A stretch of 64,000 nucleotides of DNA from assembly GCA_030605095.1 (NCBI GenBank), contig JAUWBJ010000002.1, positions 2,355 to 66,354 of the forward strand. Direction: 5' to 3'. Source of the DNA: Candidatus Omnitrophota bacterium. GTDB lineage: Bacteria > Omnitrophota > Gorgyraeia > JABMRN01 > RBG-13-46-9. Under the pieces are notes generated by a model. That model searched no databases, was not told where the DNA came from, and worked only from the letters and a program-made list of their open reading frames with translations. This document shows, piece after piece, positions 5,391-54,235 of this stretch; positions within the stretch are counted from its first letter, which is position 1; the number at the start of each line of letters is the position of its first letter. Made by a program: the position numbers and the translations under genes.

Positions 5391-6061
5391 ACCCCGTTAG
5401 AAATTTTGATATACCAGGGAGAAAAAAGGATATTTCTAACGGGGTGAAATATAAAATAATATTAGCGTCGGCGTCAAAGAGGCGCTCGAAGATACTTGAA
5501 GAATGCGGGATACCGCACAGCGTCGTCATAAGTAATGTCCCCGAGAAGATGGACCATAAAAGGGGCGCGAGGTTCAATGTCCTGCATAATGCCCGACTCA
5601 AGACCGAAAAGGTAGCGGGTAGATATAAGGAAGGCTTTGTTATCGGCGTTGATACCGTTGTTTTATTAGGAAAGCGCCTAATCGGAAAACCAAAAACAAG
5701 AAAAGAGGCAAGATCCCTTCTCAACGCATTCTCGGGAAAGACAATCCTTGTCTGTACCGGGCTTTGCGTAATAGACGCTAAAAGAGCAAAATCAAAATGC
5801 GCAGTCGATATATCAAAGGTGCATGTCAAAAAGCTTTCGCGCAAAAAAATAGATAAATTCTTAAGAGTAGCAGGCCCTCATGACAAGGCAGGCGGTTTTT
5901 CGATAGAAGGCCCCGGAACATTCATATTCGATAATATAGAAGGTTCATTCTATAACATACTGGGCCTGCCCATGATGAAACTCTATGGGCTTTTTGAAGA
6001 ATTAGGCGTGGATCTTTTGGGCATGGCGGCATTATCAAATAGAGGAGGAGTTAGCATATGA
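5387..6061 (+). CDS. maf: Maf-like nucleoside triphosphate pyrophosphatase (septum formation protein Maf)
   Basis: KIILASASKRR...GKPKTRKEA...SFYNILGLP is typical of Maf. The real start may be the in-frame GTG at 5444. Confidence 0.8.
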   Translation: MNPVRNFDIPGRKKDISNGVKYKIILASASKRRSKILEECGIPHSVVISNVPEKMDHKRGARFNVLHNARLKTEKVAGRYKEGFVIGVDTVVLLGKRLIGKPKTRKEARSLLNAFSGKTILVCTGLCVIDAKRAKSKCAVDISKVHVKKLSRKKIDKFLRVAGPHDKAGGFSIEGPGTFIFDNIEGSFYNILGLPMMKLYGLFEELGVDLLGMAALSNRGGVSI

Positions 6062-17130: not shown

Positions 17131-18212
17131 GTAGATTTATTCACATATAGCGTCTGGGTGGGATAGGCGAATTCAATGCCACGTTTTTCAAATTCTTCCT
17201 TTACGGCAAAATTAATCTCTTGCTGAATATCCATATATTTATTGTAATCCCTGCTCATAACGTAGTAAACAACTTCAATAACGAGGTTGAAATCGCCGTA
17301 TGAAGAGAAATGCGCGCGGTCAAAAGTCGTATCCTTAACGTTTTTTATCACTTTCTCGATTACGCCTGGTATCTCTTTTAACTTTTTAAGGGGCGTCTGG
17401 TATGTAACGCCAAGCCTGAAAACAACTCTCCTTTTTCCCATCCTTTTATAGTTGCGCACCCTGGATGAGGTAAGGTCTTTGTTGGAAAAAACAACCTGCT
17501 CTCCGCCGAGTGAGCGTATGCGCGTGGTCTTAATTCCGATATGCTCGATGGTTCCTAAATAGTCCCCTATTATGATAAAATCTCCGATTTCAAACGGCTT
17601 GTCAAAAAGAATCGCGAAATAACTGAATAAATCGCCCAGAATCGCCTGGGCCGCTAAAGCTATTGCCACGCCTCCTATACCCAGCCCTGCGATAACGGCT
17701 GATATTTTGAATCCCAGATTGTCCAGGAAAAACGTAATCGCCAGACCCCATACAACTACCTTTACGACTTTTAAAATTCCGGTCAGACTGCGCTCTAAAG
17801 TTTTATCTTTTCCTCTTTTTGCCGAATAAATATCAAACCCGTAATCCGTAAGGGCTATGGCTAAACGCGCTATAAACATCACCAGAATAGCCATCATTAC
17901 AGTGTTGATGCCTTTTAAGAGCAGCGGATTTAAAGTCAGGGTATTTACGCTTATATATAAAACGCCGAAATACGCTAAAGGAAGGGCTATATTTTGAACA
18001 ATTCCAATCAGAAAGTCATCCAGGGTGGTAACGGTTTTCTCCGCCCATTTTTTTAAGCGTTTTAGAAGAAAATGGCGGAATATTTTAATACCGACATAAC
18101 CTGCAAAAAACAGAAGAACGCATATCAAATAATCCGCGATACGGTTTCCGAGAAAAACATTTTCCATAATATCCTGAAACATTTTATCCTCCGCCGGATG
18201 TGGCCCGGACAA
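17127..18212 (-). CDS. Mechanosensitive ion channel, MscS family
   Basis: TM helices followed by the conserved MscS beta-domain (...GDLFSYFAILFDKPFEIGDFI...). Confidence 0.85.
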   Translation of the reverse strand: MSGPHPAEDKMFQDIMENVFLGNRIADYLICVLLFFAGYVGIKIFRHFLLKRLKKWAEKTVTTLDDFLIGIVQNIALPLAYFGVLYISVNTLTLNPLLLKGINTVMMAILVMFIARLAIALTDYGFDIYSAKRGKDKTLERSLTGILKVVKVVVWGLAITFFLDNLGFKISAVIAGLGIGGVAIALAAQAILGDLFSYFAILFDKPFEIGDFIIIGDYLGTIEHIGIKTTRIRSLGGEQVVFSNKDLTSSRVRNYKRMGKRRVVFRLGVTYQTPLKKLKEIPGVIEKVIKNVKDTTFDRAHFSSYGDFNLVIEVVYYVMSRDYNKYMDIQQEINFAVKEEFEKRGIEFAYPTQTLYVNKST

Positions 18213-20148
18213 GTTTTTCGAGCCGCAGCCACTGGTTGTCGATGTCTCTTTGTATTTCTTCTAAGACGTGCTTGTTTCCTTCTTTAAAGAGATGCTTGAA
18301 ACGGCCTTGTGTTCTTAAAAATTCTACAACAGGTTTTCTCTCTTTAGGCTTGTAGGTGAAATGCCAGATTCCTTTTTCAATTTCAATTAACGGCCAATAG
18401 CCTGTCTCTACGGCTAACTTGGAAATTTTCACCGTGTCTTCCTGCGGATAACGCCATCCGCGATGGCACAATGACAAGACATTTAAGAATGCGGGCCCCT
18501 CTACGGCAAACGCTTTCTGTGATTTCGTTACAAGGTCATTCCAGTGCGAAATCGAACCCTGGGCAACGTAAGGGATATTGTGCGCCGCAACAATGGCGGT
18601 GAGGTCCTTTCGTAGTTGGGGTTTGCCATAACTTGCTTTACCGGCAGGGGCTGTCGTTGTAGATGCGCCTTTTGGAGTTGCGCTGGAACGTTGTACCCCG
18701 GTATTTTCGTAGGCTTCGTTATTATAGCAGACATAGACGAAATTATGTCCGCGTTCAAATGCGCCGGACATAGACTGAAGTCCGATGTCGTAAGAATTTC
18801 CGCTTAATGATATTTTCCCGTTTCTTTTCGTAATAACAGTATGGTTCTTCTTTAATTGCGGACAATAAACGAAGCCCTTATAATCTTCTAGAAACACTTG
18901 TTGTTTGTTGCCGTAAAGCCTTCTTCTCGAATATAACTTATGATTTAAATAATTAAACCCTATACCTATTCTATAAACCCCGTCTTCTTTTCTTTGAGAA
19001 ATACTACAGTTTTTACCCAATTTTAAAACCAGCTCCACCATATTATTCATGAGTTCTTTCGAAGCTGTAATAAACTTAATGTGATAACTCCTGCGATTTT
19101 TTTGTTTAGTTATGGAGCCGTCCCCTTCTATCAGCGAACCGAATATTTCTTTAAGATAGTGCTTATTAAGTGATAATACCCATTTTGGTATTTTTTTATT
19201 TTTAAATCCCTTGCCGCATTCTCTTTCCAAATATTCGTATATTTGTTTTGATTGGAAGTCAACAGATCTGTTGCATTTAAACGGAGAAAGACCGAGATCT
19301 TTTAATAGTCTATAGATCTTTTCTTTCTTATCCTTATTTGACTGGTATATGCGTATAAGATAGCCGGATTTGCTTTTATATAAACATCCTTCAGTAATAT
19401 ACCAACCTAAAAATTTTAACCATTTTTTAGTATCAAATTTTGAAAATTCCTTTTGATATCTATATTTAGGAATCTTTGGAACTTCTATTACCATCCACAG
19501 CGTATCGTTTCCATCCCCATACCAATTGAACTTTCTCGAAAAAGCTGTTTTGTATCTTTTTAATAAATCGACGCCTTTGATAAACTCCCATTTACCCTTA
19601 TACCACATAGGCACATTATGATTCGGCGTTATTAAAAAGTCTATAAAACGGCTTTTGCCTCTTATCATTCTACCTTCATATGGATATTTATGCAGTTTTT
19701 CATTCTCCTGCAATTCCAAAATATTGGTTTCGGGATTTACCGACCAAATTTTTTCTCCTACTTTTATATTTTTTATATTTCTAAATCCGTTTTCGGTAAA
19801 TATTTCTGTATCTTCTGAATAGCAACCGCCATCGCCGCCGAAGGCAACGAACTTTATATCTTTAGTAATTTTACCTTTTTTCTTCAAAGCGCGGTAGGCT
19901 GTTTCTGCGCCACTTATTGTCGCAGCCACGTTTTCAAAAGCGTTATGTATAAAAGGAACGTTCCACGCCGTATACGGATATATAGTGGTAGCGACTTCTA
20001 AACATCCTGTCGCGGCTCCTGCTACGATAGGCGACGTTGTTCCCATAAGAATCTGCCTCACGGCGATAGAAGCTCCACAACCCGAGCAAAGCCTATGTCC
20101 CGGAGTCAATCTTTCCGGTATCTTTGATAGCTCTTTAATATTTGCCAT
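18184..20148 (-). CDS. porB: Pyruvate:ferredoxin oxidoreductase beta subunit (TPP-binding) interrupted by an in-frame intein
   Basis: N-extein ...FVAFGGDGG and C-extein SYDIGLQSMSGAFERGHNFVYVCYNNEAYENTGVQRSSATP match PorB. About 343 aa are inserted between them. Confidence 0.8.
   Translation of the reverse strand: MANIKELSKIPERLTPGHRLCSGCGASIAVRQILMGTTSPIVAGAATGCLEVATTIYPYTAWNVPFIHNAFENVAATISGAETAYRALKKKGKITKDIKFVAFGGDGGCYSEDTEIFTENGFRNIKNIKVGEKIWSVNPETNILELQENEKLHKYPYEGRMIRGKSRFIDFLITPNHNVPMWYKGKWEFIKGVDLLKRYKTAFSRKFNWYGDGNDTLWMVIEVPKIPKYRYQKEFSKFDTKKWLKFLGWYITEGCLYKSKSGYLIRIYQSNKDKKEKIYRLLKDLGLSPFKCNRSVDFQSKQIYEYLERECGKGFKNKKIPKWVLSLNKHYLKEIFGSLIEGDGSITKQKNRRSYHIKFITASKELMNNMVELVLKLGKNCSISQRKEDGVYRIGIGFNYLNHKLYSRRRLYGNKQQVFLEDYKGFVYCPQLKKNHTVITKRNGKISLSGNSYDIGLQSMSGAFERGHNFVYVCYNNEAYENTGVQRSSATPKGASTTTAPAGKASYGKPQLRKDLTAIVAAHNIPYVAQGSISHWNDLVTKSQKAFAVEGPAFLNVLSLCHRGWRYPQEDTVKISKLAVETGYWPLIEIEKGIWHFTYKPKERKPVVEFLRTQGRFKHLFKEGNKHVLEEIQRDIDNQWLRLEKLVRATSGGG
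18796..19824 (-). mobile_element. Intein with LAGLIDADG homing-endonuclease domain, inserted in porB
   Basis: Block A CYSEDTEIFT, block B TPNH, LAGLIDADG-like motifs LGWYITEGC and LIEGDGS, ends ...ISLSGN followed by +1 Ser. Confidence 0.7.
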
Positions 20149-20196: not shown

Positions 20197-21375
20197 CTAA
20201 TTTCGAACTCCTAAATAGTTAACGAGTGCTTTAATCCTTCCTGTTTTCTTTATTTCCTCTAACTCTTTATATACCTTTTTTATGTCTTCCGGGAAGATGT
20301 CGCGGCCACCGAGGCCGAATATGTAATCTATAACCGGCGGTCTCTTTTGTGATTCATAAAGCGCTGCTTTAACTTCGCTGAACAAAGGCCCGCCTTCACC
20401 CGAGAACGAATCGCTTCTATCCAGGACAGCTACGGCTTTTAAATTCGAGAGTGCCTTTATAATTCTTTCCTTCGGGAACGGCCTGAAAAATCTCGGCTTG
20501 AGAAGGCCTGCCTTTACCCCTTTTTTTCTTAATTCATCAACCACGCCCTTCGCCGTCCCTGCCGTTGAGCTCAAGACAACAATCGCTACCTCGGCATCAC
20601 TCAGCTTGTATTCTTCAACCAGGTCGTGCGACTTATTAAATGTTTTATTAAATTCCGCCAGGACCGCCGGAATAGTTTTTAAGGCATCTTTCATCGCCTC
20701 TGCTTCCTGGCGTTTATGTTCGAAATAAAAATCCTGCAAATCCAGGGGACCGTATGTTACCGGGTTTTCCACATCGAGAAGGCTGTGTTCCAGAGTATAT
20801 TCGCCTATAAACTTTTTAACCTTGTCGTCAGGAAATGTACTTATACCTTCTACGGCGTGGCTTGTTATAAAACCATCCTGGCAGACCATAACGGGCAGGA
20901 GAATCTTTTTGTGCTCTGCTATTTTTACGGCAACAATGATATTTTCGTAAACCTCCTCGGCATTTTCGGAATAAAGCTGAATCCAGCCCGAGTCCCTTGC
21001 GCCCATTGTATCGGAGTGGTCGCAATGTATGTTTATGGGCCCTGACAAGGCTCTATTCACGACAGGCATAACAATGGGAAGGCGTAAAGACGCCGTTATA
21101 TAAACAATTTCCCACATAAGGGCAAGGCCGTTTGCCGACGTGGCGGTCATTGTCCGCGCACCGCTTGCGGCAGAGCCGACGCACGCGCTCATCGCGCTAT
21201 GTTCGGACTCAACCGGAATCATTTCTGTCTTTACCCTGCCGTCAGCCGCGAACTGGGAAAAATTCATAACAATCTCTGTCTGCGGCGTAATAGGATAAGC
21301 CGCGACGACATCCGGCTCAATCTGTCTCATTGCCTCAGCAGCAGCCTGGTCTCCCGTTAATGCGGTTAATTTCAT
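20197..21375 (-). CDS. porA: Pyruvate:ferredoxin oxidoreductase alpha subunit
   Basis: 392 aa. PorA-like N-terminus (YPITPQTEI...), in operon order with porD and porB. Confidence 0.85.
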   Translation of the reverse strand: MKLTALTGDQAAAEAMRQIEPDVVAAYPITPQTEIVMNFSQFAADGRVKTEMIPVESEHSAMSACVGSAASGARTMTATSANGLALMWEIVYITASLRLPIVMPVVNRALSGPINIHCDHSDTMGARDSGWIQLYSENAEEVYENIIVAVKIAEHKKILLPVMVCQDGFITSHAVEGISTFPDDKVKKFIGEYTLEHSLLDVENPVTYGPLDLQDFYFEHKRQEAEAMKDALKTIPAVLAEFNKTFNKSHDLVEEYKLSDAEVAIVVLSSTAGTAKGVVDELRKKGVKAGLLKPRFFRPFPKERIIKALSNLKAVAVLDRSDSFSGEGGPLFSEVKAALYESQKRPPVIDYIFGLGGRDIFPEDIKKVYKELEEIKKTGRIKALVNYLGVRN

Positions 21376-21650
21376 CCCTTCTCCATTTTAATACACTTTA
21401 CCGGGCAGATGCTCGCGCATATCCCGCAACCCTTGCAGTAGTCATAGTCAAATCCTTCCATTTTTCCGTCTTTTACAAGAACGGAGGAATCGGGGCAGTA
21501 TATCCAGCATTGAAGGCAATTTATGCATTTGGGTTTATCCACAACCGGCTTAAAAGTCCGCCATGAACCTGTCTTATATTCCCTGGCAGTACCGCCTTTA
21601 TCTATAATTCCGGCTATCGGAATCTCTTTCCAGCCTTTTTTCTTTTTCAC
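21372..21650 (-). CDS. porD: Pyruvate:ferredoxin oxidoreductase delta subunit (2x[4Fe-4S] ferredoxin)
   Basis: CINCLQCWIYCP and CKGCGICASICP cluster motifs. GTG start. Confidence 0.8.
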   Translation of the reverse strand: MKKKKGWKEIPIAGIIDKGGTAREYKTGSWRTFKPVVDKPKCINCLQCWIYCPDSSVLVKDGKMEGFDYDYCKGCGICASICPVKCIKMEKG

Positions 21651-21764
21651 CCCGCCCTTCCTTTTCTTTTGATGCCAATCATTGTCTTTATTTTTGCTAA
21701 ACTACTCCCCCTCTTCCTTATGTAATTTGTTTTAATCTTTTTATTAGGAAGGGCGGGGTTCATC
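21647..21764. repeat. Inverted-repeat intergenic element, copy A (CACCCCGCCCTTCC ... GGAAGGGCGGGGTTCATC)
   Basis: 13-bp terminal inverted repeats around about 90 bp, with homology to copy B at 28934-29047. The left arm provides AGGAAGG SD plus the GTG start of porD. The right arm overlaps the porG stop. Confidence 0.5.
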
Positions 21765-22332
21765 CTGTCTTTGTTTCCTTGAAGGCGCGTTTTATCGCTT
21801 TTATGTTCGCTTCGGTTTTTTCTTCGCCGAGCTTTTTAAGGAATTTCTTCCGCACTTTTTTTTCCAGCGCTTCAACCGGCACAATCGGTTTAATCTTCAA
21901 AAGAGCGCCCAGCATCGGCGTATTGGGCATCGGCATACCGAGTATCTCCAGTGAAATTTTTGTCGCATCGCAGGTGGCAACTTTTCCTTTTTTGTATCTC
22001 GCCTTCCAGCGCACGCTATCAACTGTCTCGGTCGTATTCACAATCAAGATACCGCTCTCGTCCAGGCCATCGGCAACATCAACAGTCTCCAGTAATGTCG
22101 GGTCTATCACAACAACAATATCGGGATTTGTTACAGGGGAATGGATATTTATCGGCCGGTCGCTGATTCTGGTATAGGCGCGAATAGGCGCGCCTGCCCT
22201 TTCAGGGCCGTATTCGGGAAAGGCCTGAATAGACTTACCTGTATCCAGGGCCGCTTCAGCCAAAAACTGGGCGGCTGTCTTGGCGCCCTGGCCTCCCCGG
22301 CCATGCCACCTTATTTCTAATAAATCCTTCAT
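21760..22332 (-). CDS. porG: Pyruvate:ferredoxin oxidoreductase gamma subunit
   Basis: RGGQGAKTAAQ motif typical of POR gamma subunits. Confidence 0.85.
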   Translation of the reverse strand: MKDLLEIRWHGRGGQGAKTAAQFLAEAALDTGKSIQAFPEYGPERAGAPIRAYTRISDRPINIHSPVTNPDIVVVIDPTLLETVDVADGLDESGILIVNTTETVDSVRWKARYKKGKVATCDATKISLEILGMPMPNTPMLGALLKIKPIVPVEALEKKVRKKFLKKLGEEKTEANIKAIKRAFKETKTG

Positions 22333-22349
22333 TTTGTCGGCTTTTAGAC

Positions 22350-23135
22350 TTAAACAGCGGGGCCTTGAGGACTTTCGCCTTCCTTAGCCAGCCCTAAGTA
22401 ATAACCCATGAAAACGAGCATCATAACAACAGGAATGTAAGATTGAACGGCGCTATTTACAATGGTTATTATTACCCGGGTTAGTATAAGTGGCAGCGGG
22501 ATAGTGATAAGTCCGATTATAAATCCGATTACTAAAGAAACAACAACGCTGATAGCAATCAAAAACAGAAATATCTTTAATACTTCCCAGAAATTATTTC
22601 GGCTTACGCTTATGCCTTTTTTAATCGCCTGTAAAACGCGGTTCTCATCGGCAACGATTGAGTAAACCGGGAATAAAAGTATAACCACGGCAACAAGCGC
22701 AACGGTTGCTGCTATAACCGTAACGATAGATCTCATGAAGGCATTATTAGCGATAAGCAAAACGCCGCTTCCGACCAAGAACAGAACTAACGCAATTCCC
22801 AGCGCTATTAATACATAAAGTGAGAGGAGGCCCAGAATTCTCAAATAGTACTTTTTTCCGTATGCGATAAAATTAGATATGTCGCAGGCGCCCGTTTTGT
22901 GAATATCCCTGGTGAGCCCTAACGCCCCGCCTTGCAAAAAGATAAAAATAGTGAAAAATATCAAGGTGAGAAGGAATGAGATCGTCGCTATGACGGGATT
23001 TCCTGTATTCTCCGGCGTTGTAAGCGGTAAACTCATCAGGCCCATAACAACGTTAAGGATAAAAAATATTAATACCACTTTAAGCAGTTTTTGGCTTAAT
23101 AAGAATCCTTTTTTTACAGATTCAACTATATTCAT
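22350..23135 (-). CDS. Hypothetical polytopic membrane protein
   Basis: 261 aa with 6 or more hydrophobic helices. Confidence 0.4.
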   Translation of the reverse strand: MNIVESVKKGFLLSQKLLKVVLIFFILNVVMGLMSLPLTTPENTGNPVIATISFLLTLIFFTIFIFLQGGALGLTRDIHKTGACDISNFIAYGKKYYLRILGLLSLYVLIALGIALVLFLVGSGVLLIANNAFMRSIVTVIAATVALVAVVILLFPVYSIVADENRVLQAIKKGISVSRNNFWEVLKIFLFLIAISVVVSLVIGFIIGLITIPLPLILTRVIITIVNSAVQSYIPVVMMLVFMGYYLGLAKEGESPQGPAV

Positions 23136-23214
23136 CTTAACCTCCCGCTCTTTTCGAGCTTTAAAATTAAAGATACACTATAAATAAAGCGCTGTCAAGA
23201 CCTTATTGCGTTTA

Positions 23215-23814
23215 TCAAGCTTCTCTTTTACCCTCGAAGGCTTTATAAAGGGTCGCTTGATCCGCGTATTCGAGATTTCCGCCCACGGGCATACCGTAAG
23301 CAATCCTGTATAGCTTTATGGCCATGGGCTTCAGCAATTTAACAAGGTAAAGGGCTGTGGCCTCGCCTTCCGTGTTGGAATCGGTCGCGATTATGACTTC
23401 TTTTATCTTTTCTTTTCTGATTCTTTTTACCAGCTCGTCGATTTTTAAGTCCTTGGGGCCCACGCCGTCTAAAGGCGATAATGCCCCCAGCAAAACGTGA
23501 TATACGCCGTTAAAGTGCCCCATCTTCTCTATCGAAATCACGTCGCTCGGTTTTTCTACGACGCACAAAGTCGCCTTATCCCTGGCGTCGTTACCGCATA
23601 TGTCGCAGAGCTCCTGATCACTCAAGTTATTACAGGTCTTGCAGAATTTCACGCTGTTTTTAAGTTTTACTATTGCATCCGAAAGCTTTTTTGCTTCTTC
23701 AGCCGGCTTTGTCAAAATGAAAAAGGCAAGCCGCTGGGCTGATTTCGGGCCTATGCCCGGCATTTTGCTAAATTCCGTTATCAACGCCTTCATCGAACCC
23801 GGCAGGCCCTTCAT
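23215..23814 (-). CDS. recR: Recombination protein RecR
   Basis: HhH motif, C4 zinc finger (CKTCNNLSDQELCDIC) and Toprim domain. Confidence 0.9.
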   Translation of the reverse strand: MKGLPGSMKALITEFSKMPGIGPKSAQRLAFFILTKPAEEAKKLSDAIVKLKNSVKFCKTCNNLSDQELCDICGNDARDKATLCVVEKPSDVISIEKMGHFNGVYHVLLGALSPLDGVGPKDLKIDELVKRIRKEKIKEVIIATDSNTEGEATALYLVKLLKPMAIKLYRIAYGMPVGGNLEYADQATLYKAFEGKREA

Positions 23815-25514
23815 GCTTTCTCCTTATTCCTATTCTCTCTTATATCCACAACCCTTCCCTCAAATATGTCAACCGCTGACTCTACTATCGGGTCTACCCT
23901 GTTTGGCCGGTTTTTTCCGGCTTCTTCAATTTCGCTCTCTTCAATACTTGTTATCCCGGATGCGGCGGATTCTTCAATTTGCCCTTCCAGGGCCTCAATA
24001 CTTAAAGATACGTCTTCTCCTGTAATGCTTTTAATGGCTTCTTCTACGAATTTTTTGTTTGTATTGACCTCTAACGCCTCTTTATGCAATGAATTATTCT
24101 TGTTAAACCCTATCGCAAGGACATTATCTTCCACCTTGAGCAGCTTTCCTTCGGAAAGGAACGTAGCAATCGACATTTTTTTGTTCTTTACGAAATTTAA
24201 AACCTTGGCCCAGGAGCTTCTTATCTTCTGCAGGAGGAGTATGTCGCGCTCCGCAGCAACTTCTTCTTCCGGTATCGCGGGCGGTTCTGCGGATGGCTTT
24301 ACAGACGGTCTTACAATTTTTTCGGATTTCTCCGCCGTGGCATGCCTACTTTGAATTCCTCCTCTGGCGAAGGAGGATTCTATCCGTGAAAGCCTGTCCA
24401 GAATTTCTTTAATTGAAGTGAGCCTGGTTCTATCAGTCAATTTAATCAAGGAAATTTCCAGGGGAACTCGCGCCAGGTTTGTCTTCTTCATTAAATCCAT
24501 TGCGGCAGATAATGTGTAGGTGACGTATAAAATTTCATCGAGCGAGAGGAGCTTACTCTGCTCCCGTAACTTATAATAGTCCTCTTCGGAAAGCGTTATG
24601 TAGACGCTACTCGTATCCTTTGCTATTTTCGCCACCATAAGATTTCTGAAGTAGTCTATGATGCTTGAAGCTACAAAAATAGGGTCCTTTCCGCTATTTA
24701 CGAGGCCATCGATGATGTTTAACACATTTTCCTTTTTGTTATTTATTATAGAGTCGGCTAAATCAAAGAGGACATCCTGCTCTAACAAGCCCAGAACCTT
24801 CGTAACGTCATGGGCCTGCACTTTTCCTTTTGTAAAGGAGAGGAGTTGATCGAGAATTATCTCCGCGTCTCTCATGCTCCCGTCGGCCTGCCTTGCGATT
24901 AAAAAGATTGCTTCATCGTTAACGTCAAGTTTTTCCTTTTTTCTAATCTCCTCTAATTTTTTAGCTATATCCCTTTTGGGTATTTTTCTAAAGTCGAAGC
25001 GCTGGCATCTGGAAATGATTGTCGGTAATACCTTGTAGGGCCTGGTGGTCGCAAAGATAAATTTCACATGGAGCGGCGGTTCCTCCAGCGTCTTAAGTAG
25101 GGCGTTAAAGGCCTCCTGGGTGAGCATATGGACTTCGTCGATAATGTATATCCGGAATTTTCCGCGCACAGAGGCAAATTTTACATTTTCTCTTAAGTTC
25201 CTTATTTCATCGATTCCCCTGTTGGAAGCGCCGTCGATTTCTATAACATCCATGCCTATCCCCCGCAAAATTTCCTGGCAGGAAGCACATTTATTGCACG
25301 GCTCGGGACGCGGGCCCTTCTCGCAGTTTAAACTCTTGGCAAGGATTCTCGCAGTCGATGTCTTGCCGACCCCACGCGGGCCGGTAAATAGATACGCATG
25401 CGCAACCTTATCCATAGCGATAGCGTTCTTAAGCGTAGTCGCGATATGCTCCTGTCCTATAATTTCATCAAACGCCTGCGGCCTGTATTTCCTCGCAAAT
25501 GGTAGGTATGCCAT
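23811..25514 (-). CDS. dnaX: DNA polymerase III subunit gamma/tau
   Basis: ARKYRPQAFDEIIGQEHI...GPRGVGKTS... Overlaps recR by 4 bp; no ybaB lies between them. Confidence 0.9.
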   Translation of the reverse strand: MAYLPFARKYRPQAFDEIIGQEHIATTLKNAIAMDKVAHAYLFTGPRGVGKTSTARILAKSLNCEKGPRPEPCNKCASCQEILRGIGMDVIEIDGASNRGIDEIRNLRENVKFASVRGKFRIYIIDEVHMLTQEAFNALLKTLEEPPLHVKFIFATTRPYKVLPTIISRCQRFDFRKIPKRDIAKKLEEIRKKEKLDVNDEAIFLIARQADGSMRDAEIILDQLLSFTKGKVQAHDVTKVLGLLEQDVLFDLADSIINNKKENVLNIIDGLVNSGKDPIFVASSIIDYFRNLMVAKIAKDTSSVYITLSEEDYYKLREQSKLLSLDEILYVTYTLSAAMDLMKKTNLARVPLEISLIKLTDRTRLTSIKEILDRLSRIESSFARGGIQSRHATAEKSEKIVRPSVKPSAEPPAIPEEEVAAERDILLLQKIRSSWAKVLNFVKNKKMSIATFLSEGKLLKVEDNVLAIGFNKNNSLHKEALEVNTNKKFVEEAIKSITGEDVSLSIEALEGQIEESAASGITSIEESEIEEAGKNRPNRVDPIVESAVDIFEGRVVDIRENRNKEKA

Positions 25515-25720
25515 ATTGGTTTTTCCTTTTCAACAAATACCTTTATATCAAAAAATAGCCCAAAAAGCAACTCAATTACGCCTCTTGGGTATGACCTACG
25601 AACAAATCGCCAAAAGTTTAAACGTCGGTGTAATAACTGCTACTAAGGCTTGTAAATATAAAAGGAGGAACTGTTTCTAATTTGTGGCACCACGATATTC
25701 CAAGTCTGCATCGGAAGTTC

Positions 25721-26173
25721 TCAAGTCCATCTAAATATTTTCTTTAGCTTCGCCGGTGGTTTAATTATATATACAACTATAGTAACAAGAGCGATAAATA
25801 TTGTAGGAATCAATATTACTAATGGATTAACATCCGGATAAACTAATTTTTCGATATAGCGGACTATAAACGAACCGTGATACCCAATTTTAGAATTGTA
25901 TCCTCCCCTTAAAAAATTTTCCAGTATAGTTAAAGGACAATACTCTCTTAAAAGAGTCAATAGCCCAACATAGACTATACCGCAAAGATGAAGTGTCCTG
26001 AATAACCATCTGTCAAAGAATTTAGGGTTAAAGAATCCTCTTAAAGTAAGGAAGAATCCCGAAAGCATAAAGAGTATCCATAAAAAATGTATAACTACGA
26101 TTAAATCAGCAAAAATTTTGTACAGCAACTTTACCCCGTTAGAAAAGGCTCTGTCCTTCATCCCGTTAGACAA
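25721..26173 (-). CDS. Hypothetical membrane protein
   Basis: 150 aa with 3-4 TM segments. Confidence 0.35.
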   Translation of the reverse strand: MSNGMKDRAFSNGVKLLYKIFADLIVVIHFLWILFMLSGFFLTLRGFFNPKFFDRWLFRTLHLCGIVYVGLLTLLREYCPLTILENFLRGGYNSKIGYHGSFIVRYIEKLVYPDVNPLVILIPTIFIALVTIVVYIIKPPAKLKKIFRWT

Positions 26174-26188
26174 ATTTTCTAACGGGGT

Positions 26189-28936
26189 TTATATTTCTTC
26201 TTTAAGTCTCATAACCTCTTGTCTTATTCCTAAGGTTATGGCTTCATAGTCATCTTTAGCGCCTAGTCTCGATCCTTCTTTTTTAAGTTCTTCTGCGTTA
26301 TGCGGTCTTCCGAAAACAATCGTAACAGGGTGGGGTCGTCTGGGAAAACGATTTGTTCTTGGCCAGGATTCATAGGAACCTTTGATATACACAGGAACCA
26401 ATCGAATGCTCAGTTCTTTTGCCAATATCCCGACTCCTTTTTTGAATTCTTTAACTTCTCCGTCAATTGACCTTGCTCCTTCGGGAAAGATGCAAGCTGT
26501 TTTGCCATTTCTCAAAATATAAGCACAAGCCTGTATCGCATCTATTAATTGCGCGCCAGGGTCGATAGGAATTATTCTGATTAATTTTACGATATTTCTA
26601 ATTATTGGAACTTCGAAATAGGCTCTATAACCAAGGAAGAACATATGTTTTTTTAACCATCGAGGTAGGGCTGCAACAATTAGGAACCCGTCCAAATAAC
26701 TACCGTGATTGGGGCAGAGAATAAATGCTTTGTTCGAAGGTAAATTTTTTATTCCAAAAACTTTAACCTGCCAGATAAGTTTAAATATTATATATAACAT
26801 CCCAGAGACTAATAGCGTGAAAAACCGCGCTATCCAACCGGGAAATAAATCTATTTTTTCAATTATATCTTTGGCTGGATTGGTCTTTAAAATATCACTC
26901 CATAAAGATAATCGAGTCTGGATTGCTGAGACTTCCTCGGTCCTTGGTTCTTTCTTTAAAATCAATTTCTCAATTTCAAGAATAAGTTCTCTTACTATGA
27001 AAATTTTAACCATTACAGAATCCGGTATGTCAATCTTTAAAATCTTTTCTAATGCAACCATTAATTCCGCGCGCCCTAACGAATCAAGGCCAAGATCGAT
27101 TTCCAAGTGGTCGTCCAACCGGATTTGCCTCTCTAAATCCGTTTCTTTACTTAAGGTTTTTATTATTTTCTTGGCAATTCCCGAAGAGAGAATTTTAAGG
27201 TCTTCACCTGTAAGGGAAATCTCCTCATCTATCTTTCTCAACCCCACGCCCATAAGTTCATCTAAATATCTATTCTTAATTTCAAATCTTTTTAACTTCC
27301 CTAAACGTGTCTGGGGTAAATCCTCACTTGTAACAACAAAGCCCATAATCCGTTTGTAGGGAGGGTATTGTTTAGACAGATTCTCCAAATCCCACTTAAT
27401 CATTCCATAAATATTAACCTCGCCAACCTTGCGGTAATAGTCCAAATCAGGCACAATGACCGCCATAAGCTTTTCCTCTTCTCTTTTACCAGTTGCTAAT
27501 ACGCATAATCCTTTAATAAAAGGGCTCTTGGCATAATGGGATTCCACCTCTTCGGGAGATATATTCTTTCCCGAGCTTAACACAATCAACTCTTTCTTCC
27601 TTCCCGTAAGACGGAGATACCCCTCTTTGTCCAGATAACCCAAATCTCCAGAATAGAACCAATTATCCTTTAAAACCTTTCTCGTCTCTTCGACTTCTTT
27701 ATAGTAGCCTCTCATAACATTAGGGCCTTTGATTGCCACCTCGCCTACGCCGTATTCGTCAGGTTCAGCAATTCTTAAGTTCACATCTGGAATTACTTTC
27801 CCCACAGAGCCTATTTTTTGTTTTTTCAATGGATTAAAAGTTGCTACCGGCGATGTTTCAGTAAGTCCGTATCCTTCCAGGATTGTAAAACCGATTTTCA
27901 CAAGAAACCTTGCTGCCTCTTCATTTAACTTAGCACCGCCACAAGCAAAAAATCTTAAATTTTTTCCGAAGGCACGGTGAATCTTTGACAATGCCAGCTT
28001 GGCCAAGTTAATTCCCGTAAACTTTCTCACCAACCACAATATCTCTATAAACCCTAAAAGGGAGAGTCTCATCAAAAACGGGACTTTCTTTATTCCATCT
28101 ACTATATGCTTATAAAACATATAAAAAAGCTGAGGTACTCCCGTTAATATCGTCACACCTGTCTTTCTCATACACGCAAGCAATTCCTCACTCTTAAGGC
28201 TTGAAATGTAGGTAATCTTGCTTTGAGAAAAAAGTGGTATAACGAGGGTCACCATAAATGGAAATGAATGATGCAGCGGTAATATAGACAGAACATTATC
28301 TTTATCTGAAAAGAGTTTTAATTTATCAATACTTTGAGAATTGGAATAAAAATTTTCATGGGTTAACATAACACCTTTTGGCCTGCCGGTAGTGCCTGAG
28401 GTATAAAGAATAGAGGCGATATCCTGGGGAGATGCCTCTGGCATAGATGTTATGGACTTTAAATCTGATACGGCAGATATCGTTTCCGAAAAAGAAATAA
28501 TTTCTTCGGACGATTTTTCAATGTCGAGGGCTATGATTTGTTGTAATGAAGGCACGCTATTAGTGAAGCCCGTAAATAACGAAAGTAATTTACTGGAGGT
28601 AAAGGCTACCTTGCTTTCTGAATCACTTAGAAAAAATTTTATCTCTTCTTGTCCGGATTGAGGATCAAGAGGGATAGCTATGGCCCCTCGAAGCATAATG
28701 CCAAAGTAGATCATTCCCCATTCAGGCCTGTTTTCCAGAACAATAGCGACTCTATCGCCTTTTTTTATCCCCGCTTTAAGTAAAGAATGTGCAACAGATT
28801 GAGAGACCCCGTAAAGCTCTTTATAGGTATACTTGACATAGACATCTTCTTTTTTCATTTGCATAACAATTCTATCAGGAAATTGATCAACTATTTCTCT
28901 TAATTTACCATGTAGAGTATATAATTTCTTATTCAC
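26189..28936 (-). CDS. Tri-domain acyl-ACP synthetase / lysophospholipid acyltransferase (AMP-binding + PP-binding + PlsC domains; Aas-like)
   Basis: AMP-binding motifs (YTSGTTGRPKG), carrier-domain serine (LGLDSLGRAELM), and the C-terminal HX4D acyltransferase motif (NHGSYLDG). GTG start is supplied by IR element copy B. Confidence 0.7.
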   Translation of the reverse strand: MNKKLYTLHGKLREIVDQFPDRIVMQMKKEDVYVKYTYKELYGVSQSVAHSLLKAGIKKGDRVAIVLENRPEWGMIYFGIMLRGAIAIPLDPQSGQEEIKFFLSDSESKVAFTSSKLLSLFTGFTNSVPSLQQIIALDIEKSSEEIISFSETISAVSDLKSITSMPEASPQDIASILYTSGTTGRPKGVMLTHENFYSNSQSIDKLKLFSDKDNVLSILPLHHSFPFMVTLVIPLFSQSKITYISSLKSEELLACMRKTGVTILTGVPQLFYMFYKHIVDGIKKVPFLMRLSLLGFIEILWLVRKFTGINLAKLALSKIHRAFGKNLRFFACGGAKLNEEAARFLVKIGFTILEGYGLTETSPVATFNPLKKQKIGSVGKVIPDVNLRIAEPDEYGVGEVAIKGPNVMRGYYKEVEETRKVLKDNWFYSGDLGYLDKEGYLRLTGRKKELIVLSSGKNISPEEVESHYAKSPFIKGLCVLATGKREEEKLMAVIVPDLDYYRKVGEVNIYGMIKWDLENLSKQYPPYKRIMGFVVTSEDLPQTRLGKLKRFEIKNRYLDELMGVGLRKIDEEISLTGEDLKILSSGIAKKIIKTLSKETDLERQIRLDDHLEIDLGLDSLGRAELMVALEKILKIDIPDSVMVKIFIVRELILEIEKLILKKEPRTEEVSAIQTRLSLWSDILKTNPAKDIIEKIDLFPGWIARFFTLLVSGMLYIIFKLIWQVKVFGIKNLPSNKAFILCPNHGSYLDGFLIVAALPRWLKKHMFFLGYRAYFEVPIIRNIVKLIRIIPIDPGAQLIDAIQACAYILRNGKTACIFPEGARSIDGEVKEFKKGVGILAKELSIRLVPVYIKGSYESWPRTNRFPRRPHPVTIVFGRPHNAEELKKEGSRLGAKDDYEAITLGIRQEVMRLKEEI

Positions 28937-29047
28937 CCCGCCCTTCCTTTCTTTTCAATGCAATCCCTGTTTTTATCTTTTGCAATCACTTCGTTCTTCA
29001 TTATATTATTATTCATTGTAATTTTTTTAGGAAGGGCGGGGTTCATC
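28934..29047. repeat. Inverted-repeat intergenic element, copy B
   Basis: Same terminal inverted repeats and homologous interior as copy A. It encodes the last residues (DEPRPS) and stop of the MFS gene, and the SD plus GTG start of the Aas-like gene. Confidence 0.5.
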
Positions 29048-30274
29048 TCCAGCCATCGCTCCTTGTATACTATCTGGAACTTTTTGAAGTATAATAAAGC
29101 CCATGACTAAAAATGGCAATAAACTGAGGATAGCCAACCGGTACTTTAAAATCCCCAAAAAGCCGAATCCCCAGACACAAACTCCCCAGATAAGTGGCCC
29201 GATAATTGAAGCGGACTTTCCTACTAAGCCATAAAAACCAAAGACCTCTCCTACCATTTGTGGTGGAGATAAATCTACCACTAATGCCCGCGCACTTGTC
29301 CAGGTTGCACCTAAACATATTCCTACCAATGGTCCCACAACCCAGAATGCGGTTTTGCTAAAAGATATAACCACCAAAAGGATGCTTATACACCATACCC
29401 CCAAGACAATACTTAAAGTTCGCTTTGAGCCGAACCTATCTGTAATGAATCCTGTTACAAATGAACTCAGAATAGCAAAGACTGTAGATATAATATAGAA
29501 GGCGATAATCTCATGGTCTGTAAATCCCATAACTTTTTTGGTGTAAACAGACATAAATACAATAAGGGTATTAATAGCATTAAGGGTTATAAATGCAGCA
29601 ATTAAAAAATTAAAGAGCGCCGGATACTCCCTGATATGTATAAATGTCTCTTTTACTTTCCTGAAACTGTCTATTATTCGAATTCCGAATTTATCTATTC
29701 TTTTTACCAACCGATCTTTCACAAATAGAAAACAGGGAAGGGAAAATAAAAGAAAGAGAATTGCCGTAGGGACAAATGCTGCTTGCCTTCCATATCTTAA
29801 AACAAATGGTCTGACTAAAAGTAATCCGGCAATCGTGCCGCAATATCCCAGACTTACACCGTAACCGGAGACTCGACCTGTCTGACCTTTGTCGCTTATC
29901 TCGGGAAGCAAAGCATTGTAGAATATAGCAGCTGTCTGATAGCAAAAATTGGCAATGGCAAAGAACAGAAGTCCTAAAACTAATCTATTTACCAGTCCTA
30001 TTAATGCGGTAAAGGCACAACAGATTAAGGTGAAGAACATTAAAAAGGGCATCCTTCTTCCCAGTCTATCTGAAATCGCTCCCATTATCGGGGAAGAGAT
30101 AGCCGCCAATAACATCGAGCCGGACAAGGCCCAGCTGTATAAAATATCCTCTCCCTTCATATCCACAGTTACCCACAAAGCAAAGTAAAGGGAGATTACA
30201 TTCATGGCAAATATAGTATTAGCAAAGTCATACATCGACCAGGAGAAGATTGTAAGTTTTCTATTAATCTTCAT
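29027..30274 (-). CDS. MFS transporter, probable lysophospholipid transporter (LplT-like)
   Basis: 12-TM MFS fold. Adjacent to the Aas-like gene, as lplT-aas is in E. coli. Confidence 0.6.
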   Translation of the reverse strand: MKINRKLTIFSWSMYDFANTIFAMNVISLYFALWVTVDMKGEDILYSWALSGSMLLAAISSPIMGAISDRLGRRMPFLMFFTLICCAFTALIGLVNRLVLGLLFFAIANFCYQTAAIFYNALLPEISDKGQTGRVSGYGVSLGYCGTIAGLLLVRPFVLRYGRQAAFVPTAILFLLFSLPCFLFVKDRLVKRIDKFGIRIIDSFRKVKETFIHIREYPALFNFLIAAFITLNAINTLIVFMSVYTKKVMGFTDHEIIAFYIISTVFAILSSFVTGFITDRFGSKRTLSIVLGVWCISILLVVISFSKTAFWVVGPLVGICLGATWTSARALVVDLSPPQMVGEVFGFYGLVGKSASIIGPLIWGVCVWGFGFLGILKYRLAILSLLPFLVMGFIILQKVPDSIQGAMAGDEPRPS

Positions 30275-53875: not shown

Positions 53876-54235
53876 TACCCCGCAGAGGACTCGAACCTCT
53901 CACAATCGCCTTAAACACTATTGTTACCCTACCATAAGATAGAGGGCCAATTCGGTTATATTGGCCTCTGCATATCGCTATGCAGGTCAGACTATACAAT
54001 CTTCGCGAAATATAAAATTTCACGAAGTCCTGATTATAGTCGTTGAACCTCCCCCGTTCTTGCACGCAAGGGCGGGGTTTGGCTGCGGATTGTCTGCATC
54101 GCTGTATTTTTACCTGATACGGTAACAGCGAATACGCCAGAGTTTCCCGCAATTTACAGGATTTTCATCTATTAGTTACCTAATAGCGCCCCTTATTAAA
54201 AAAGGGCGGTGCTCTACCAGATGAGCTAGCGGGGC
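53876..54235 (-). tRNA. tRNA-Lys(UUU) interrupted by a group I intron (exon 1 54235-54203, intron 54202-53916, exon 2 53915-53876)
   Basis: Exon 1 GCCCCGCUAGCUCAUCUGGUAGAGCACCGCCCU plus exon 2 UUUAAGGCGAUUGUGAGAGGUUCGAGUCCUCUGCGGGGUA fold into a cloverleaf with loop CUUUUAA. Confidence 0.65.
53916..54202 (-). ncRNA. Group I self-splicing intron (287 nt, no ORF)
   Basis: P-like AAUUGCGGGAAA, Q-like AAUCCGCAGCC, R-like GUUCAACGACUAUAA and S-like GAUUGUAUAGUCUG elements. P1 pairs exon CGCCCU with IGS GGGGCG (U.G at the 5' splice site). Terminal G precedes exon 2. Confidence 0.7.

What the first reader, a model, noticed from the sequence alone, without database searches (positions are those of the whole stretch)
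28934..29047. Second copy of the inverted-repeat element between the LplT-like and Aas-like genes
The terminal inverted repeats are the same and the interior is recognisably homologous (ttcttttcaatgcaatccctgtttttatcttttgc vs ttcttttgatgccaatcattgtctttatttttgc). Here the right arm encodes the last six residues (DEPRPS) and the stop of the MFS gene. The left arm again gives AGGAAGG plus a GTG start for the downstream gene. Two independent genes using the element as both a C-terminal coding tail and an initiation region argues for insertion of a mobile repeat followed by exaptation.
Basis: seen in the sequence. Interest (0 to 1): 0.5.

Follow-up and report, generated by a model that had tools for sequence, protein, structure and literature searches.

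The report
Start-codon-hijacking miniature mobile element
The 106-base inverted-repeat element is a stripped-down copy of a tiny mobile gene for a GIY-YIG nuclease; it has inserted exactly on the start codon of a bacterial gene and gives that gene a new ribosome-binding site and GTG start, an arrangement I could not find described anywhere.

Summary
Two copies lie on the minus strand at 28936-29041 and 21650-21758, with perfect 13-nt arms CCCCGCCCTTCCT / AGGAAGGGCGGGG. Both are real insertions. Close relatives have empty sites with one TGAA (…GATGAATAAG… for MFS/Aas, …GAATGAAAAAG… for porC/porD). The window has TGAA-element-TGAA.

Across 37 independent sites in Omnitrophota contigs, the 4-nt flanks match in 32. 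The base before the left flank makes ATG or GTG in 36. The GTG formed by the arm's last G plus the right-hand TG opens a long gene in 35.

The element is not an ordinary MITE. The orphaned ATG plus the 5' arm reads MNPALP, and the 3' arm reads GRAG-stop. Full-length 80-90 aa GIY-YIG nucleases with exactly these ends sit at other start codons with the same flanks. The window copies keep about 33 nt of the 5' end and 90 nt of the 3' end of that gene.

Only PRPS plus the stop of the MFS tail is element-encoded. Orthologues end in KDE.

The closest described system is Ssn with its hairpin repeats (2025). Mobility, the target duplication and start-codon targeting were not described there. That the nuclease drives mobility, and that translation is coupled through the hairpin, are inferences.

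The parts
28936..29041 (-). Copy 2 of the miniature element (106 nt, from CCCC to GGGG)
   Evidence: Absent from the orthologous MFS/Aas junctions in L044-L047, which read ...GATGAATAAGA....
29029..29041 (-). 5' arm CCCCGCCCTTCCT of copy 2. In the MFS frame it encodes P-R-P-S, and its last T starts the TAA stop (29027-29029).
   Evidence: Orthologues end ...KDE.
28936..28948 (-). 3' arm AGGAAGGGCGGGG of copy 2. AAGGA at 28945-28949 is a Shine-Dalgarno-like motif 8 nt upstream of the GTG.
   Evidence: AAGGA, AGGAA and GGAGG are among the commonest 5-mers upstream of long ORFs in this window.
29042..29045 (-). Upstream copy of the duplicated target TGAA. With A at 29046 it forms the orphaned original ATG of the Aas-like gene.
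   Evidence: The empty sites carry a single ATGAA.
28932..28935 (-). Downstream copy of the duplicated target TGAA. Its TG joins the arm's last G (28936) to form the new GTG start (28934-28936). Its TGA is the stop of the mini-ORF.
28933..29046 (-). Mini-ORF MNPALPKKITMNNNIMKNEVIAKDKNRDCIEKKGRAG*, the remnant of the GIY-YIG gene. It starts at the orphaned ATG and its stop overlaps the GTG.
   Evidence: Translation. It aligns to both ends of the full-length GIY-YIG proteins and genes.
29027..30274 (-). MFS transporter gene whose last 4 codons and stop come from the element
26189..28936 (-). Acyl-CoA ligase / acyl carrier / acyltransferase (Aas-like) gene, now starting at the element-derived GTG. 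The N-terminus VNKKLY matches the orthologues' MNKRLY.
21650..21758 (-). Copy 1 of the miniature element (109 nt), between porC and porD
   Evidence: Absent in L049 (PorC 97% identical), which reads ACAGAATGAAAAAGAAAAAGGGCTGG.
21746..21758 (-). 5' arm of copy 1
21650..21662 (-). 3' arm of copy 1, providing the SD-like AAGGA and the G of the porD GTG start (21648-21650)
21759..21762 (-). Upstream TGAA of copy 1. Its TGA (21760-21762) is the porC stop, and A21763 plus its TG is the orphaned porD ATG.
21646..21649 (-). Downstream TGAA of copy 1
21647..21763 (-). Mini-ORF MNPALPNKKIKTNYIRKRGSSLAKIKTMIGIKRKGRAG*. Its C-terminal 24 residues match the end of GIY-YIG protein P0241.
   Evidence: BLASTP gives 13/24 identical, E=1e-7. 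Alignments A4 and A5.

Best explanation
The element at 28936-29041, and its sister at 21650-21758, is a non-autonomous, internally deleted derivative of a roughly 265-bp mobile element whose only gene is an 80-90 aa single-domain GIY-YIG nuclease of the Ssn/UPF0213 size class.

Shown: the element family inserts at R-TG-A-R, that is, on a start codon followed by a purine-rich second codon, and it is flanked by a 4-nt direct repeat, usually TGAA. The element has no start or stop codon of its own. The host's ATG (upstream copy of the target) becomes the element's start, and the 5' arm then reads N-P-A-L-P. The 3' arm reads G-R-A-G, and the TGA of the downstream target copy is its stop. The last G of the 3' arm plus the TG of that copy makes a GTG in the host gene's original frame, 8 nt after an AAGGA in the arm. 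The displaced gene therefore keeps its full protein sequence. In the window, the Aas-like gene and porD were displaced in this way, and the MFS gene gained a PRPS tail.

Inferred: (a) the GIY-YIG nuclease, or a relative acting in trans, recognises the stem formed by the two arms and mobilises the element; (b) on the mRNA the 14-bp arm helix (about -32 kcal/mol) hides the new SD and GTG until ribosomes open it. Those ribosomes either finish the upstream gene or translate the mini-ORF from the orphaned ATG. Host gene expression would thus stay coupled to its original translation signals.
For: Insertion with duplication:
- Empty sites exist for copy 2 in four contigs (L044-L047) and for copy 1 in L049-L051.

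Family-wide rules, from 46 perfect-arm copies at 37 independent sites:
- The flanks are identical at 32 of 37 sites, including 7 sites with non-TGAA flanks (TGAG or TGGA) that match on both sides; 0 of 100,000 permutations reached 7.
- A or G precedes the left flank at 36 of 37 sites.
- The GTG opens an ORF of at least 80 aa, or one that runs off the contig, at 35 of 37 sites.
- Degenerate and short copies found with mismatches (L004, L016, L017, L027) also sit on ATGAR or GTGAR.

Parent gene:
- P0241-P0247 are 80-90 aa proteins that start MNPALP, end GRAG and carry Pfam GIY-YIG.
- Their DNA in L053, L054 and L055 shows the same arms and TGAA flanks. Their gene coordinates, and those reported for P0244, show 4-nt overlaps with the downstream host gene.
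- The window copies align to the 5' ~33 nt and 3' ~90 nt of these genes. The copy 1 peptide matches P0241 at E=1e-7.
- The L014 mini-ORF hits GIY-YIG at E=4e-4.
- Y, Y, G, R, H and E residues at the expected motif positions are invariant in the full-length set.
- The closest solved structures are the UPF0213 GIY-YIG proteins 1zg2 and 1ywl.

Arms change together:
- CCCAGCCC/GGGCTGGG in L054 and L017, and TCCC.../...GGGA in L053.

Structure and translation signals:
- The hairpin is predicted in RNA (-32.6 and -32.3 kcal/mol, z = -5.9 and -4.7) and in ssDNA.
- SD-like 4-mers lie upstream of 29 of 63 long ORFs, against a background of 17%.

Precedent:
- Ssn GIY-YIG nucleases bind hairpin repeats in ssDNA, cut beside them and are flanked by them (PMC11893778).
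Against: - No full-length copy with these arms lies in the 64-kb window. The GIY-YIG ORF at 855-1133 is only 36% identical and has no matching arms.
- GIY-YIG enzymes are hydrolytic nucleases with no known strand-transfer chemistry. TIRs plus a 4-bp duplication are the classical signature of DDE transposases, so another enzyme could do the moving.
- Both public scans required perfect arms 60-95 nt apart. That favours copies whose arms are under selection and may exaggerate the association with start codons.
- Copy number looks low, at a handful per genome.
- Five of 37 sites have non-matching flanks. Three of these (L002, L030, L035) have TTCA on the left.
- The frequent open mini-ORFs need no selection, because one in three internal deletions of a coding sequence stays in frame.
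- Nothing here measures translation, nuclease activity or transposition.
- Membership of the Ssn clade (CDD cd10448) could not be tested.
Confidence: 0.8

Rival explanations
1. It is a classical MITE moved in trans by a DDE transposase that recognises the 13-bp terminal inverted repeats and makes a 4-bp staggered cut. The GIY-YIG ORF in the long form would be a passenger or an unrelated selfish gene that happens to be bounded by the same repeats.
For: The element has perfect TIRs and a 4-bp target duplication that varies with the site. Short 44-68 nt copies and tandem copies sharing a TSD exist, as MITEs do. GIY-YIG nucleases have no known transposase chemistry (established knowledge).
Against: The long form encodes nothing but the GIY-YIG protein, and the arms lie inside its first and last codons. 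No arm-bounded transposase appeared in 367 kb of fetched sequence, although that is a small sample. Several other arm families show the same arrangement. The precedent of Ssn nucleases tied to their own hairpin repeats points the other way (PMC11893778).
Confidence: 0.12
2. It is a resident cis-regulatory RNA (a translational-coupling or attenuator hairpin) that evolved in place between operon genes. The two copies would resemble each other through convergence or shared function, not mobility.
For: There is a strong predicted hairpin that sequesters the SD and start codon. The element is always between co-directional genes or in front of a gene.
Against: Relatives with 92-97% identical neighbouring proteins lack it cleanly and have a single TGAA. 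The same arms occur in front of unrelated genes in many genomes. The interior is a remnant of a nuclease gene. There is no Rfam match, even at E<=1.
Confidence: 0.02
3. The copies are domesticated recognition sites for a host Ssn-type single-strand nuclease, as proposed for NTS repeats in Neisseria. They would be kept because they mark genes for control of recombination or transformation, and they would no longer move.
For: Ssn family proteins bind such hairpins and their repeats cluster around genes. A GIY-YIG gene is present in the window (855-1133). The arms are perfectly conserved while the interiors have diverged to 70%.
Against: Copy 1 is absent from a lineage with a 97% identical PorC, so insertion is recent. 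The position is fixed to the nucleotide on start codons, which a recombination mark does not require. The arms do not resemble the NTS/dRS3 sequence quoted in PMC11893778. This reading is compatible with a mobile origin and does not replace it.
Confidence: 0.06

Closest known systems
Ssn nucleases and their Ssn-related hairpin motifs (NTS/SRM; Chenal et al. 2025, PMC11893778)
   Same: Both involve a single-domain GIY-YIG protein of about 90 aa. The gene is bracketed by sequences that can pair into a GC-rich stem. Gene-less hairpin copies are scattered next to other genes. The Ssn authors themselves noted the IS-like layout NTS-ssnA-NTS.
   Different: Here the two halves of the stem are the first and last codons of the nuclease gene itself, rather than complete hairpins on each side. 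The arm sequence is unrelated to NTS. Insertion is documented by empty sites with a 4-nt duplication. Every copy sits on a start codon and regenerates SD plus GTG. None of this is in the Ssn paper: 'start codon' occurs 0 times in it and mobility is only hypothesised there. Clade membership (cd10448) was not tested.
Bacterial MITEs such as Correia/NEMIS elements of Neisseria or MITEAba12
   Same: Both are short (50-150 bp), have terminal inverted repeats and a target duplication, lack a complete gene, are co-transcribed with neighbours, can add residues to neighbouring ORFs, and show presence/absence polymorphism.
   Different: Known MITEs derive from DDE-transposase insertion sequences and land in intergenic DNA at loosely defined targets (TA for Correia). 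This one derives from a GIY-YIG gene, targets start codons and rebuilds the translation start.
REP/REPIN elements with RAYT, and IS200/IS605 'peel and paste' elements
   Same: Both are small GC-rich hairpins dispersed through the genome and tied to one small nuclease gene that is flanked by them. A tetranucleotide next to the hairpin foot is important. ssDNA intermediates are plausible.
   Different: RAYT and TnpA are HUH Y1 enzymes, not GIY-YIG. REPs carry GTAG or CGTC heads, are extragenic, and leave no duplication that varies with the site.
Rickettsia palindromic elements (RPE)
   Same: Both are short palindromic mobile repeats tolerated inside or against coding sequence, and both contribute residues to host proteins.
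   Different: RPEs insert in frame within genes. They have no known encoded enzyme and no start-codon rule.
Free-standing GIY-YIG homing endonuclease genes (T4 Seg proteins, I-TevI family)
   Same: Both are selfish GIY-YIG genes wedged between host genes.
   Different: Homing enzymes are 200+ aa with separate DNA-binding domains. They copy themselves into one cognate allele by recombination, and they have no inverted repeats, no target duplication and no miniature derivatives.

Membership tests
MITE (miniature inverted-repeat transposable element) | Terminal inverted repeats | tested here: met
   13-nt perfect arms (14 with the A:T pair) in both copies.
MITE (miniature inverted-repeat transposable element) | Target-site duplication flanking the element | tested here: met
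   TGAA on both sides, single in the empty sites. Flanks match at 32 of 37 sites, including the TGAG and TGGA variants.
MITE (miniature inverted-repeat transposable element) | Presence/absence polymorphism at orthologous sites | tested here: met
   L044-L047 lack copy 2 and L049-L051 lack copy 1.
MITE (miniature inverted-repeat transposable element) | Derived from, and sharing ends with, an autonomous element that encodes a transposase | tested here: inconclusive
   A longer form with the same ends exists (L053-L055), but its product is a GIY-YIG nuclease, not a recognised transposase. No DDE element with these ends was seen in 367 kb.
Ssn / SRM system (PMC11893778) | Single-domain GIY-YIG protein of about 90-100 aa | tested here: met
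   This applies to the parent form. P0241-P0247 are 80-90 aa, carry Pfam PF01541 and have no other domain. The best PDB matches are UPF0213 1zg2 and 1ywl. The window copies have lost the catalytic core.
Ssn / SRM system (PMC11893778) | Membership of the CDD cd10448 clade | not testable with these tools
   No CDD models or SsnA sequence were available. NCBIfam gave only weak GIY-YIG-type hits.
Ssn / SRM system (PMC11893778) | Nuclease gene flanked on both sides by its cognate hairpin-forming repeat, with further copies elsewhere in the genome | tested here: inconclusive
   The gene is bracketed by the two halves of one stem, not by two hairpins. Gene-less copies that do form hairpins are dispersed.
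Ssn / SRM system (PMC11893778) | Repeat resembles the NTS/SRM consensus (ATTCCC-N8-GGGAAT core with a CGTC head) | tested here: not met
   The arms are CCCCGCCCTTCCT / AGGAAGGGCGGGG, against the consensus quoted.
Ssn / SRM system (PMC11893778) | Site-specific cleavage of ssDNA next to the hairpin | not testable with these tools
   This needs purified protein and oligonucleotides.
REP/REPIN with RAYT; IS200/IS605 | HUH Y1 transposase; GTAG/CGTC-headed palindromes; no target duplication | tested here: not met
   The associated gene is GIY-YIG. The arms lack a GTAG or CGTC head. The flanking 4-mers vary with the site and match each other.
Integron attC site | R''/L''...L'/R' organisation with a GTTRRRY core at the cassette boundary | tested here: not met
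   The ends are CCCC.../...GGGG flanked by TGAA, with no GTTRRRY.
Known structured RNA family (Rfam) | Match to a curated covariance model | tested here: not met
   No hit on either copy at gathering thresholds or at E<=1 over 21500-29200.
Free-standing GIY-YIG homing endonuclease | GIY-YIG domain plus a DNA-binding domain, with one cognate homing site | tested here: not met
   The proteins are 80-90 aa with no second domain. Insertions lie in front of at least 37 unrelated genes.

The most novel reading that the evidence does not exclude
These elements define an unrecognised class of prokaryotic transposable element. Its full-length form is about 265 bp, which would be the smallest autonomous one known. 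Its sole product is a single-domain GIY-YIG (Ssn-like) nuclease. It targets start codons and borrows both its start and its stop codon from the duplicated 4-nt target. It compensates the host with a built-in Shine-Dalgarno sequence and a regenerated GTG, so it can colonise essential genes and operon junctions at little cost. Sister families with other arm sequences, and GIY-YIG domains fused in place of prepilin leader peptides, suggest the strategy is widespread.
Probability: 0.45. Interest if true: 0.9.

Novelty: new variant of a known kind. Interest (0 to 1): 0.8.

Why it matters
Mobility of Ssn-type GIY-YIG genes and their hairpin repeats has so far only been hypothesised. Here it is documented by clean filled and empty sites, which gives that enzyme family a concrete biological role to test.

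The architecture is also unusual for any mobile element. Insertion is exact to the nucleotide on start codons. The element uses the host's ATG and a duplicated TGA as its own start and stop. It rebuilds a ribosome-binding site and start for the displaced gene. This would explain how it sits in front of core metabolic genes such as porD in small, gene-dense genomes.

In practice, such copies mislead gene callers, producing false C-terminal tails such as PRPS, N-terminal extensions such as MNPVRN, and wrong starts. The 13-nt arms with their nuclease could also become sequence-specific ssDNA tools like those proposed for Ssn.

Tried and rejected
- Rfam at gathering and permissive thresholds gave nothing on the element.
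- I first read the element as a DDE-type MITE and looked for solitary or distant arms that could bound an IS, in the window and in 367 kb of loci. Only more short copies turned up.
- The arm-like hit at L003 1534-1639 is a false positive: it is the coding sequence of a Rossmann GGAGF motif.
- I first took the many end-to-end open mini-ORFs (14 of the 18 elements whose length is 1 mod 3) as evidence of selection for translational coupling. I dropped this once the parent gene was found, because in-frame internal deletions of a coding sequence explain it. The length bias of 18/37 against an expected 1/3 is marginal.
- I first read the internal GGAAGAG..GGGG motifs as decayed inner arms of tandem dimers. 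In copy 1 they align instead to the YGSGLAK codons of the nuclease gene. True tandem dimers do exist elsewhere (L010, L013, L041, L042).
- The GIY-YIG ORF at window 855-1133 was tested as a possible parent. It is 36% identical with no matching arms, so I rejected it.
- The contig of the closest MFS relative (P0002, L056) has a different downstream gene, so it says nothing about the junction.
- L048 (P0019) shows only an arm-like AGGGCGGGGT at a rearranged junction, and I left it unexplained.
I used a 51-aa composite of the L014 and L011 mini-ORFs instead.
- Seven literature searches found no description of start-codon-targeting GIY-YIG elements. A 2026 Omnitrophota genome preprint does not mention them.
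Full report
**Observation.** The region 28934-29047 contains a perfect inverted repeat. The arms are ACCCCGCCCTTCCT (28935-28948) and AGGAAGGGCGGGGT (29029-29042), 80 nt apart. The same arms occur at 21649-21662 / 21746-21759, 83 nt apart. The 13-mer with up to two mismatches is found 8 times in the window, against 1.2 expected, and no shuffle reached 8. The two interiors share 62 of 88 aligned columns; shuffled interiors give 50 +/- 3 with a maximum of 60. All flanking genes are on the minus strand, so I describe the element in that sense.

Copy 2 lies between an MFS transporter gene (29027-30274) and a 915-aa gene with acyl-CoA ligase, carrier and acyltransferase domains (26189-28936). Copy 1 lies between porC (21760-22332) and porD (21372-21650) of a four-subunit pyruvate:ferredoxin oxidoreductase operon.

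**It is an insertion.** I fetched orthologous loci through the neighbouring proteins. Where the MFS protein is 92% or 86% identical (L044-L047), the MFS/Aas junction reads ...AAAGATGAATAAGA.... The MFS gene ends K-D-E-stop, and the next gene starts at an ATG that overlaps it by 8 nt. The window reads ...GGAGATGAA[106 nt]TGAATAAGA....

Where PorC is 97% identical (L049), the porC/porD junction reads ACAGAATGAAAAAGAAAAAGGG. The window reads ACAGGATGAA[109 nt]TGAAAAAGAAAAAAGG. L050 and L051 are also empty.

Each copy is therefore a clean insertion with a 4-nt duplication of TGAA. The closest MFS orthologues end in KDE. Only P-R-P-S and the stop are contributed by the arm. An unrelated ORF next to another copy (L041 4589-5104) also ends LDEPRPS.

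**The family and its rules.** One scan of GTDB genomes and one of JGI metagenomes asked for both arms 60-95 nt apart. They returned 43 loci, almost all from Omnitrophota. Together with the window, that gives 46 copies at 37 independent sites.
- In the sense orientation they read R-TGAR | CCCCGCCCTTCCT ... AGGAAGGGCGGGG | TGAR.
- The two 4-mers are identical at 32 of 37 sites. Seven of those sites have TGAG or TGGA on both sides, and 0 of 100,000 permutations reached 7.
- The base before the left 4-mer is A at 30 sites and G at 6, which makes a start codon.
- The GTG made from the arm's last G and the right-hand TG opens an ORF of at least 80 aa, or one that runs off the contig, at 35 of 37 sites. 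Several of these show recognisable N-termini, such as the Rossmann-type VYLVTGGAGFIGS (L003) and VLAYSGGLDTS (L040).
- Copies found by allowing mismatches, including short ones of 44-68 nt, obey the same rule.
- Tandem copies that share a 4-mer occur in L010, L013, L041 and L042.

The scans required perfect arms. The strength of the start-codon association may therefore be inflated by selection on arms that now serve as translation signals.

**What the element is.** Read from the orphaned ATG, the 5' arm encodes M-N-P-A-L-P. The 3' arm encodes G-R-A-G, followed by the TGA of the right-hand 4-mer, and that TGA overlaps the GTG. In the window both copies are open from end to end, at 37 and 38 codons.

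In L014 and L023 this mini-ORF reads MNPALPKNWYYVYLLKSNTRSWIYIGCTNDLEKKGRAG. It matches positions 2-25 of the Pfam GIY-YIG domain at E=4e-4. A protein search with a composite of two such mini-ORFs found 80-90 aa proteins that begin MNPALP, end GRAG and carry a complete GIY-YIG domain (P0241-P0247).

Their genes sit between unrelated host genes: SHMT/NrdR, AlaRS/unknown, and a sugar epimerase/nucleotidyltransferase pair. In the three contigs whose DNA I read (L053, L054, L055) the arms and TGAA flanks are the same. The gene coordinates, and those reported for P0244, show 4-nt overlaps with the downstream host gene.

In L053 the arm termini have changed together (TCCC.../...GGGA), which turns the host start into ATG. 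In L054 and in a short copy in L017, both arms carry the matching change CCCAGCCC/GGGCTGGG.

The window copies align with the first ~33 nt and the last ~90 nt of these genes. The copy 1 peptide ...RGSSLAKIKTMIGIKRKGRAG matches the end of P0241...YGSGLAKLKSRLGIETKGRAG, at E=1e-7. The two window copies share the same deletion layout. That points to a single deleted ancestor that was mobilised afterwards. The window elements are therefore gutted, non-autonomous derivatives of a ~265-bp GIY-YIG element.

**How it most likely works.** The following is shown by sequence.
- The element has no start or stop codon of its own. It uses the host's ATG as its start and the duplicated TGA as its stop.
- It returns to the host gene a GTG in the original frame, with AAGGA 8 nt upstream. 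AAGGA, AGGAA and GGAGG are among the commonest 5-mers upstream of long ORFs here. SD-like 4-mers precede 29 of 63 long ORFs, against a background of 17%.
- The 5' arm also carries stops in the two other frames: TGA just before it and TAA at its end. These terminate porC and the MFS gene respectively.

The following is inferred.
- On the mRNA the arms form a 14-bp helix (-32.6 and -32.3 kcal/mol, z = -5.9 and -4.7) that buries the new SD and GTG. Ribosomes that terminate in or beside the 5' arm, or that translate the mini-ORF from the orphaned ATG, would melt the helix. The host gene would then remain coupled to its native signals.
- For mobility, the arms also pair in ssDNA. That brings the two TGAA copies to the foot of one stem. 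Ssn GIY-YIG nucleases bind this kind of substrate and cut beside it, even when the stem is assembled from two strands (PMC11893778).
- I therefore think the encoded nuclease, or a relative acting in trans, mobilises both long and short forms. This step is not demonstrated. A separate DDE transposase remains a live rival, because GIY-YIG enzymes are not known to join DNA.

**Comparison with what is known.** The protein is a single-domain GIY-YIG. Its nearest solved structures are the UPF0213 proteins 1zg2 and 1ywl. A profile search finds 11,802 cluster representatives at E<=1e-3.

The closest described system is Ssn with its hairpin repeats. Its authors noted an IS-like layout but did not show mobility, a target duplication or any link to start codons; 'start codon' does not occur in the paper. 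The arms here do not resemble NTS, and I could not test cd10448 membership.

Classical MITEs, REP/RAYT, IS200/IS605, integron attC sites, Rickettsia palindromic elements and free-standing homing endonuclease genes each share some features. Each also fails at least one defining feature (see the membership table). Seven literature searches and one Omnitrophota genome preprint gave no prior description.

**Breadth.** The same layout recurs with other arm sequences.
- CCCCGTTAGAAAW occurs twice in this window, at 5392-5444 on the start of a maf-like gene and at 26134-26187 straight after the Aas-like stop.
- CCCCACCACCTCT occurs three times in L052.
- CCCCGCACCTTCT and CCCCCACACCAAC occur in other loci.
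- Relatives of the nuclease start MNPAPP, MSPALP or MNPAPS and end GEAG, GGAG or EGAG, as expected if their arms are also encoded in the termini.

**Verdict.** I rate it a new variant of a known kind (the Ssn/hairpin-repeat type of system in MITE-like form). There is a substantial chance that it represents a new class of transposable element. Confidence is very high for the insertion and its rules, high for derivation from the GIY-YIG gene, and moderate for nuclease-driven mobility and hairpin-mediated coupling.

Noticed in passing
window 5392-5444 (+ sense) and 26134-26187 (- sense): A second family of short elements has arms CCCCGTTAGAAAW / WTTTCTAACGGGG (53-54 nt). The first copy sits on the start of a maf-like gene (ATGAA|...|TGAA) and is in frame, giving MNPVRNFDIPGRKKDISNG+VKYKIILASASKRR. 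The second has TAAA on both sides, straight after the stop of the Aas-like gene. An MFS orthologue (P0049) starts MNPVRN, which is this arm read in frame.
   Followed up: partly
L052 479-591, 1062-1196, 1670-1737; L028 1460-1530; L039 7224-7317; L027 8797-8846; L021 2890-2942: Further arm families (CCCCACCACCTCT, CCCCGCACCTTCT, CCCCCACACCAAC, CCCCGCCCTCTCC) share the CCCC...GGGG ends. Most have ATGA/TGAR or TAAA flanks. This suggests a superfamily of such elements.
   Followed up: partly
window 855-1133 (+): A 92-aa single-domain GIY-YIG ORF (MWYLYILKCADNTLYTG...) is 36% identical to the MNPALP-type nuclease. It looks more G+C-rich by eye than its surroundings and has no matching inverted arms. 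It could conceivably act in trans on the miniature copies.
   Followed up: partly
L041 5106-5510 (-): Another GIY-YIG ORF is bracketed by a different perfect 16-nt inverted repeat (CCCTTGACATTTTTCC / GGAAAAATGTCAAGGG), about 0.6 kb from two MNPALP-type miniature copies.
   Followed up: no
proteins P0262-P0401: 41 of the 149 best cluster representatives of the nuclease profile are fusions of the GIY-YIG domain to a prepilin-type N-terminus (...KSGAG|FTLIELLVV...). The nuclease domain sits where the prepilin leader peptide would be, so prepilin peptidase might separate the two.
   Followed up: no
L020, L021, L024, L025, L032 versus L037: One orthologous insertion, in front of the same gene and with a nearly identical interior, has TGAG on both sides in five contigs and TGAA on both sides in a sixth. 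The two flanks differ together, which implies independent insertion at the same start codon, co-conversion, or a constraint that keeps them identical.
   Followed up: no
L002, L030, L035: Three copies have TTCA (the reverse complement of TGAA) on the left instead of TGAA. The palindrome then extends into the flank. This is unexplained.
   Followed up: no
window 53968-54212 (-): A group I intron (Rfam RF00028, 101.7 bits) lies next to a 286-aa ORF (54265-55125) that I judged LAGLIDADG-like by eye. The host gene was not identified, and ARAGORN calls no tRNA there.
   Followed up: partly
window 18184-20148 (-): The PorB subunit ORF is 654 aa and appears to carry an intein-like insert (CYSEDTEIF...HN with a homing-endonuclease-like middle).
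   Followed up: no
L048 1625-1650: In one relative the MFS gene ends ...KDRAG-stop through an arm-like AGGGCGGGGT, and the Aas-like gene is missing. This may be a solo arm left by a deletion.
   Followed up: no
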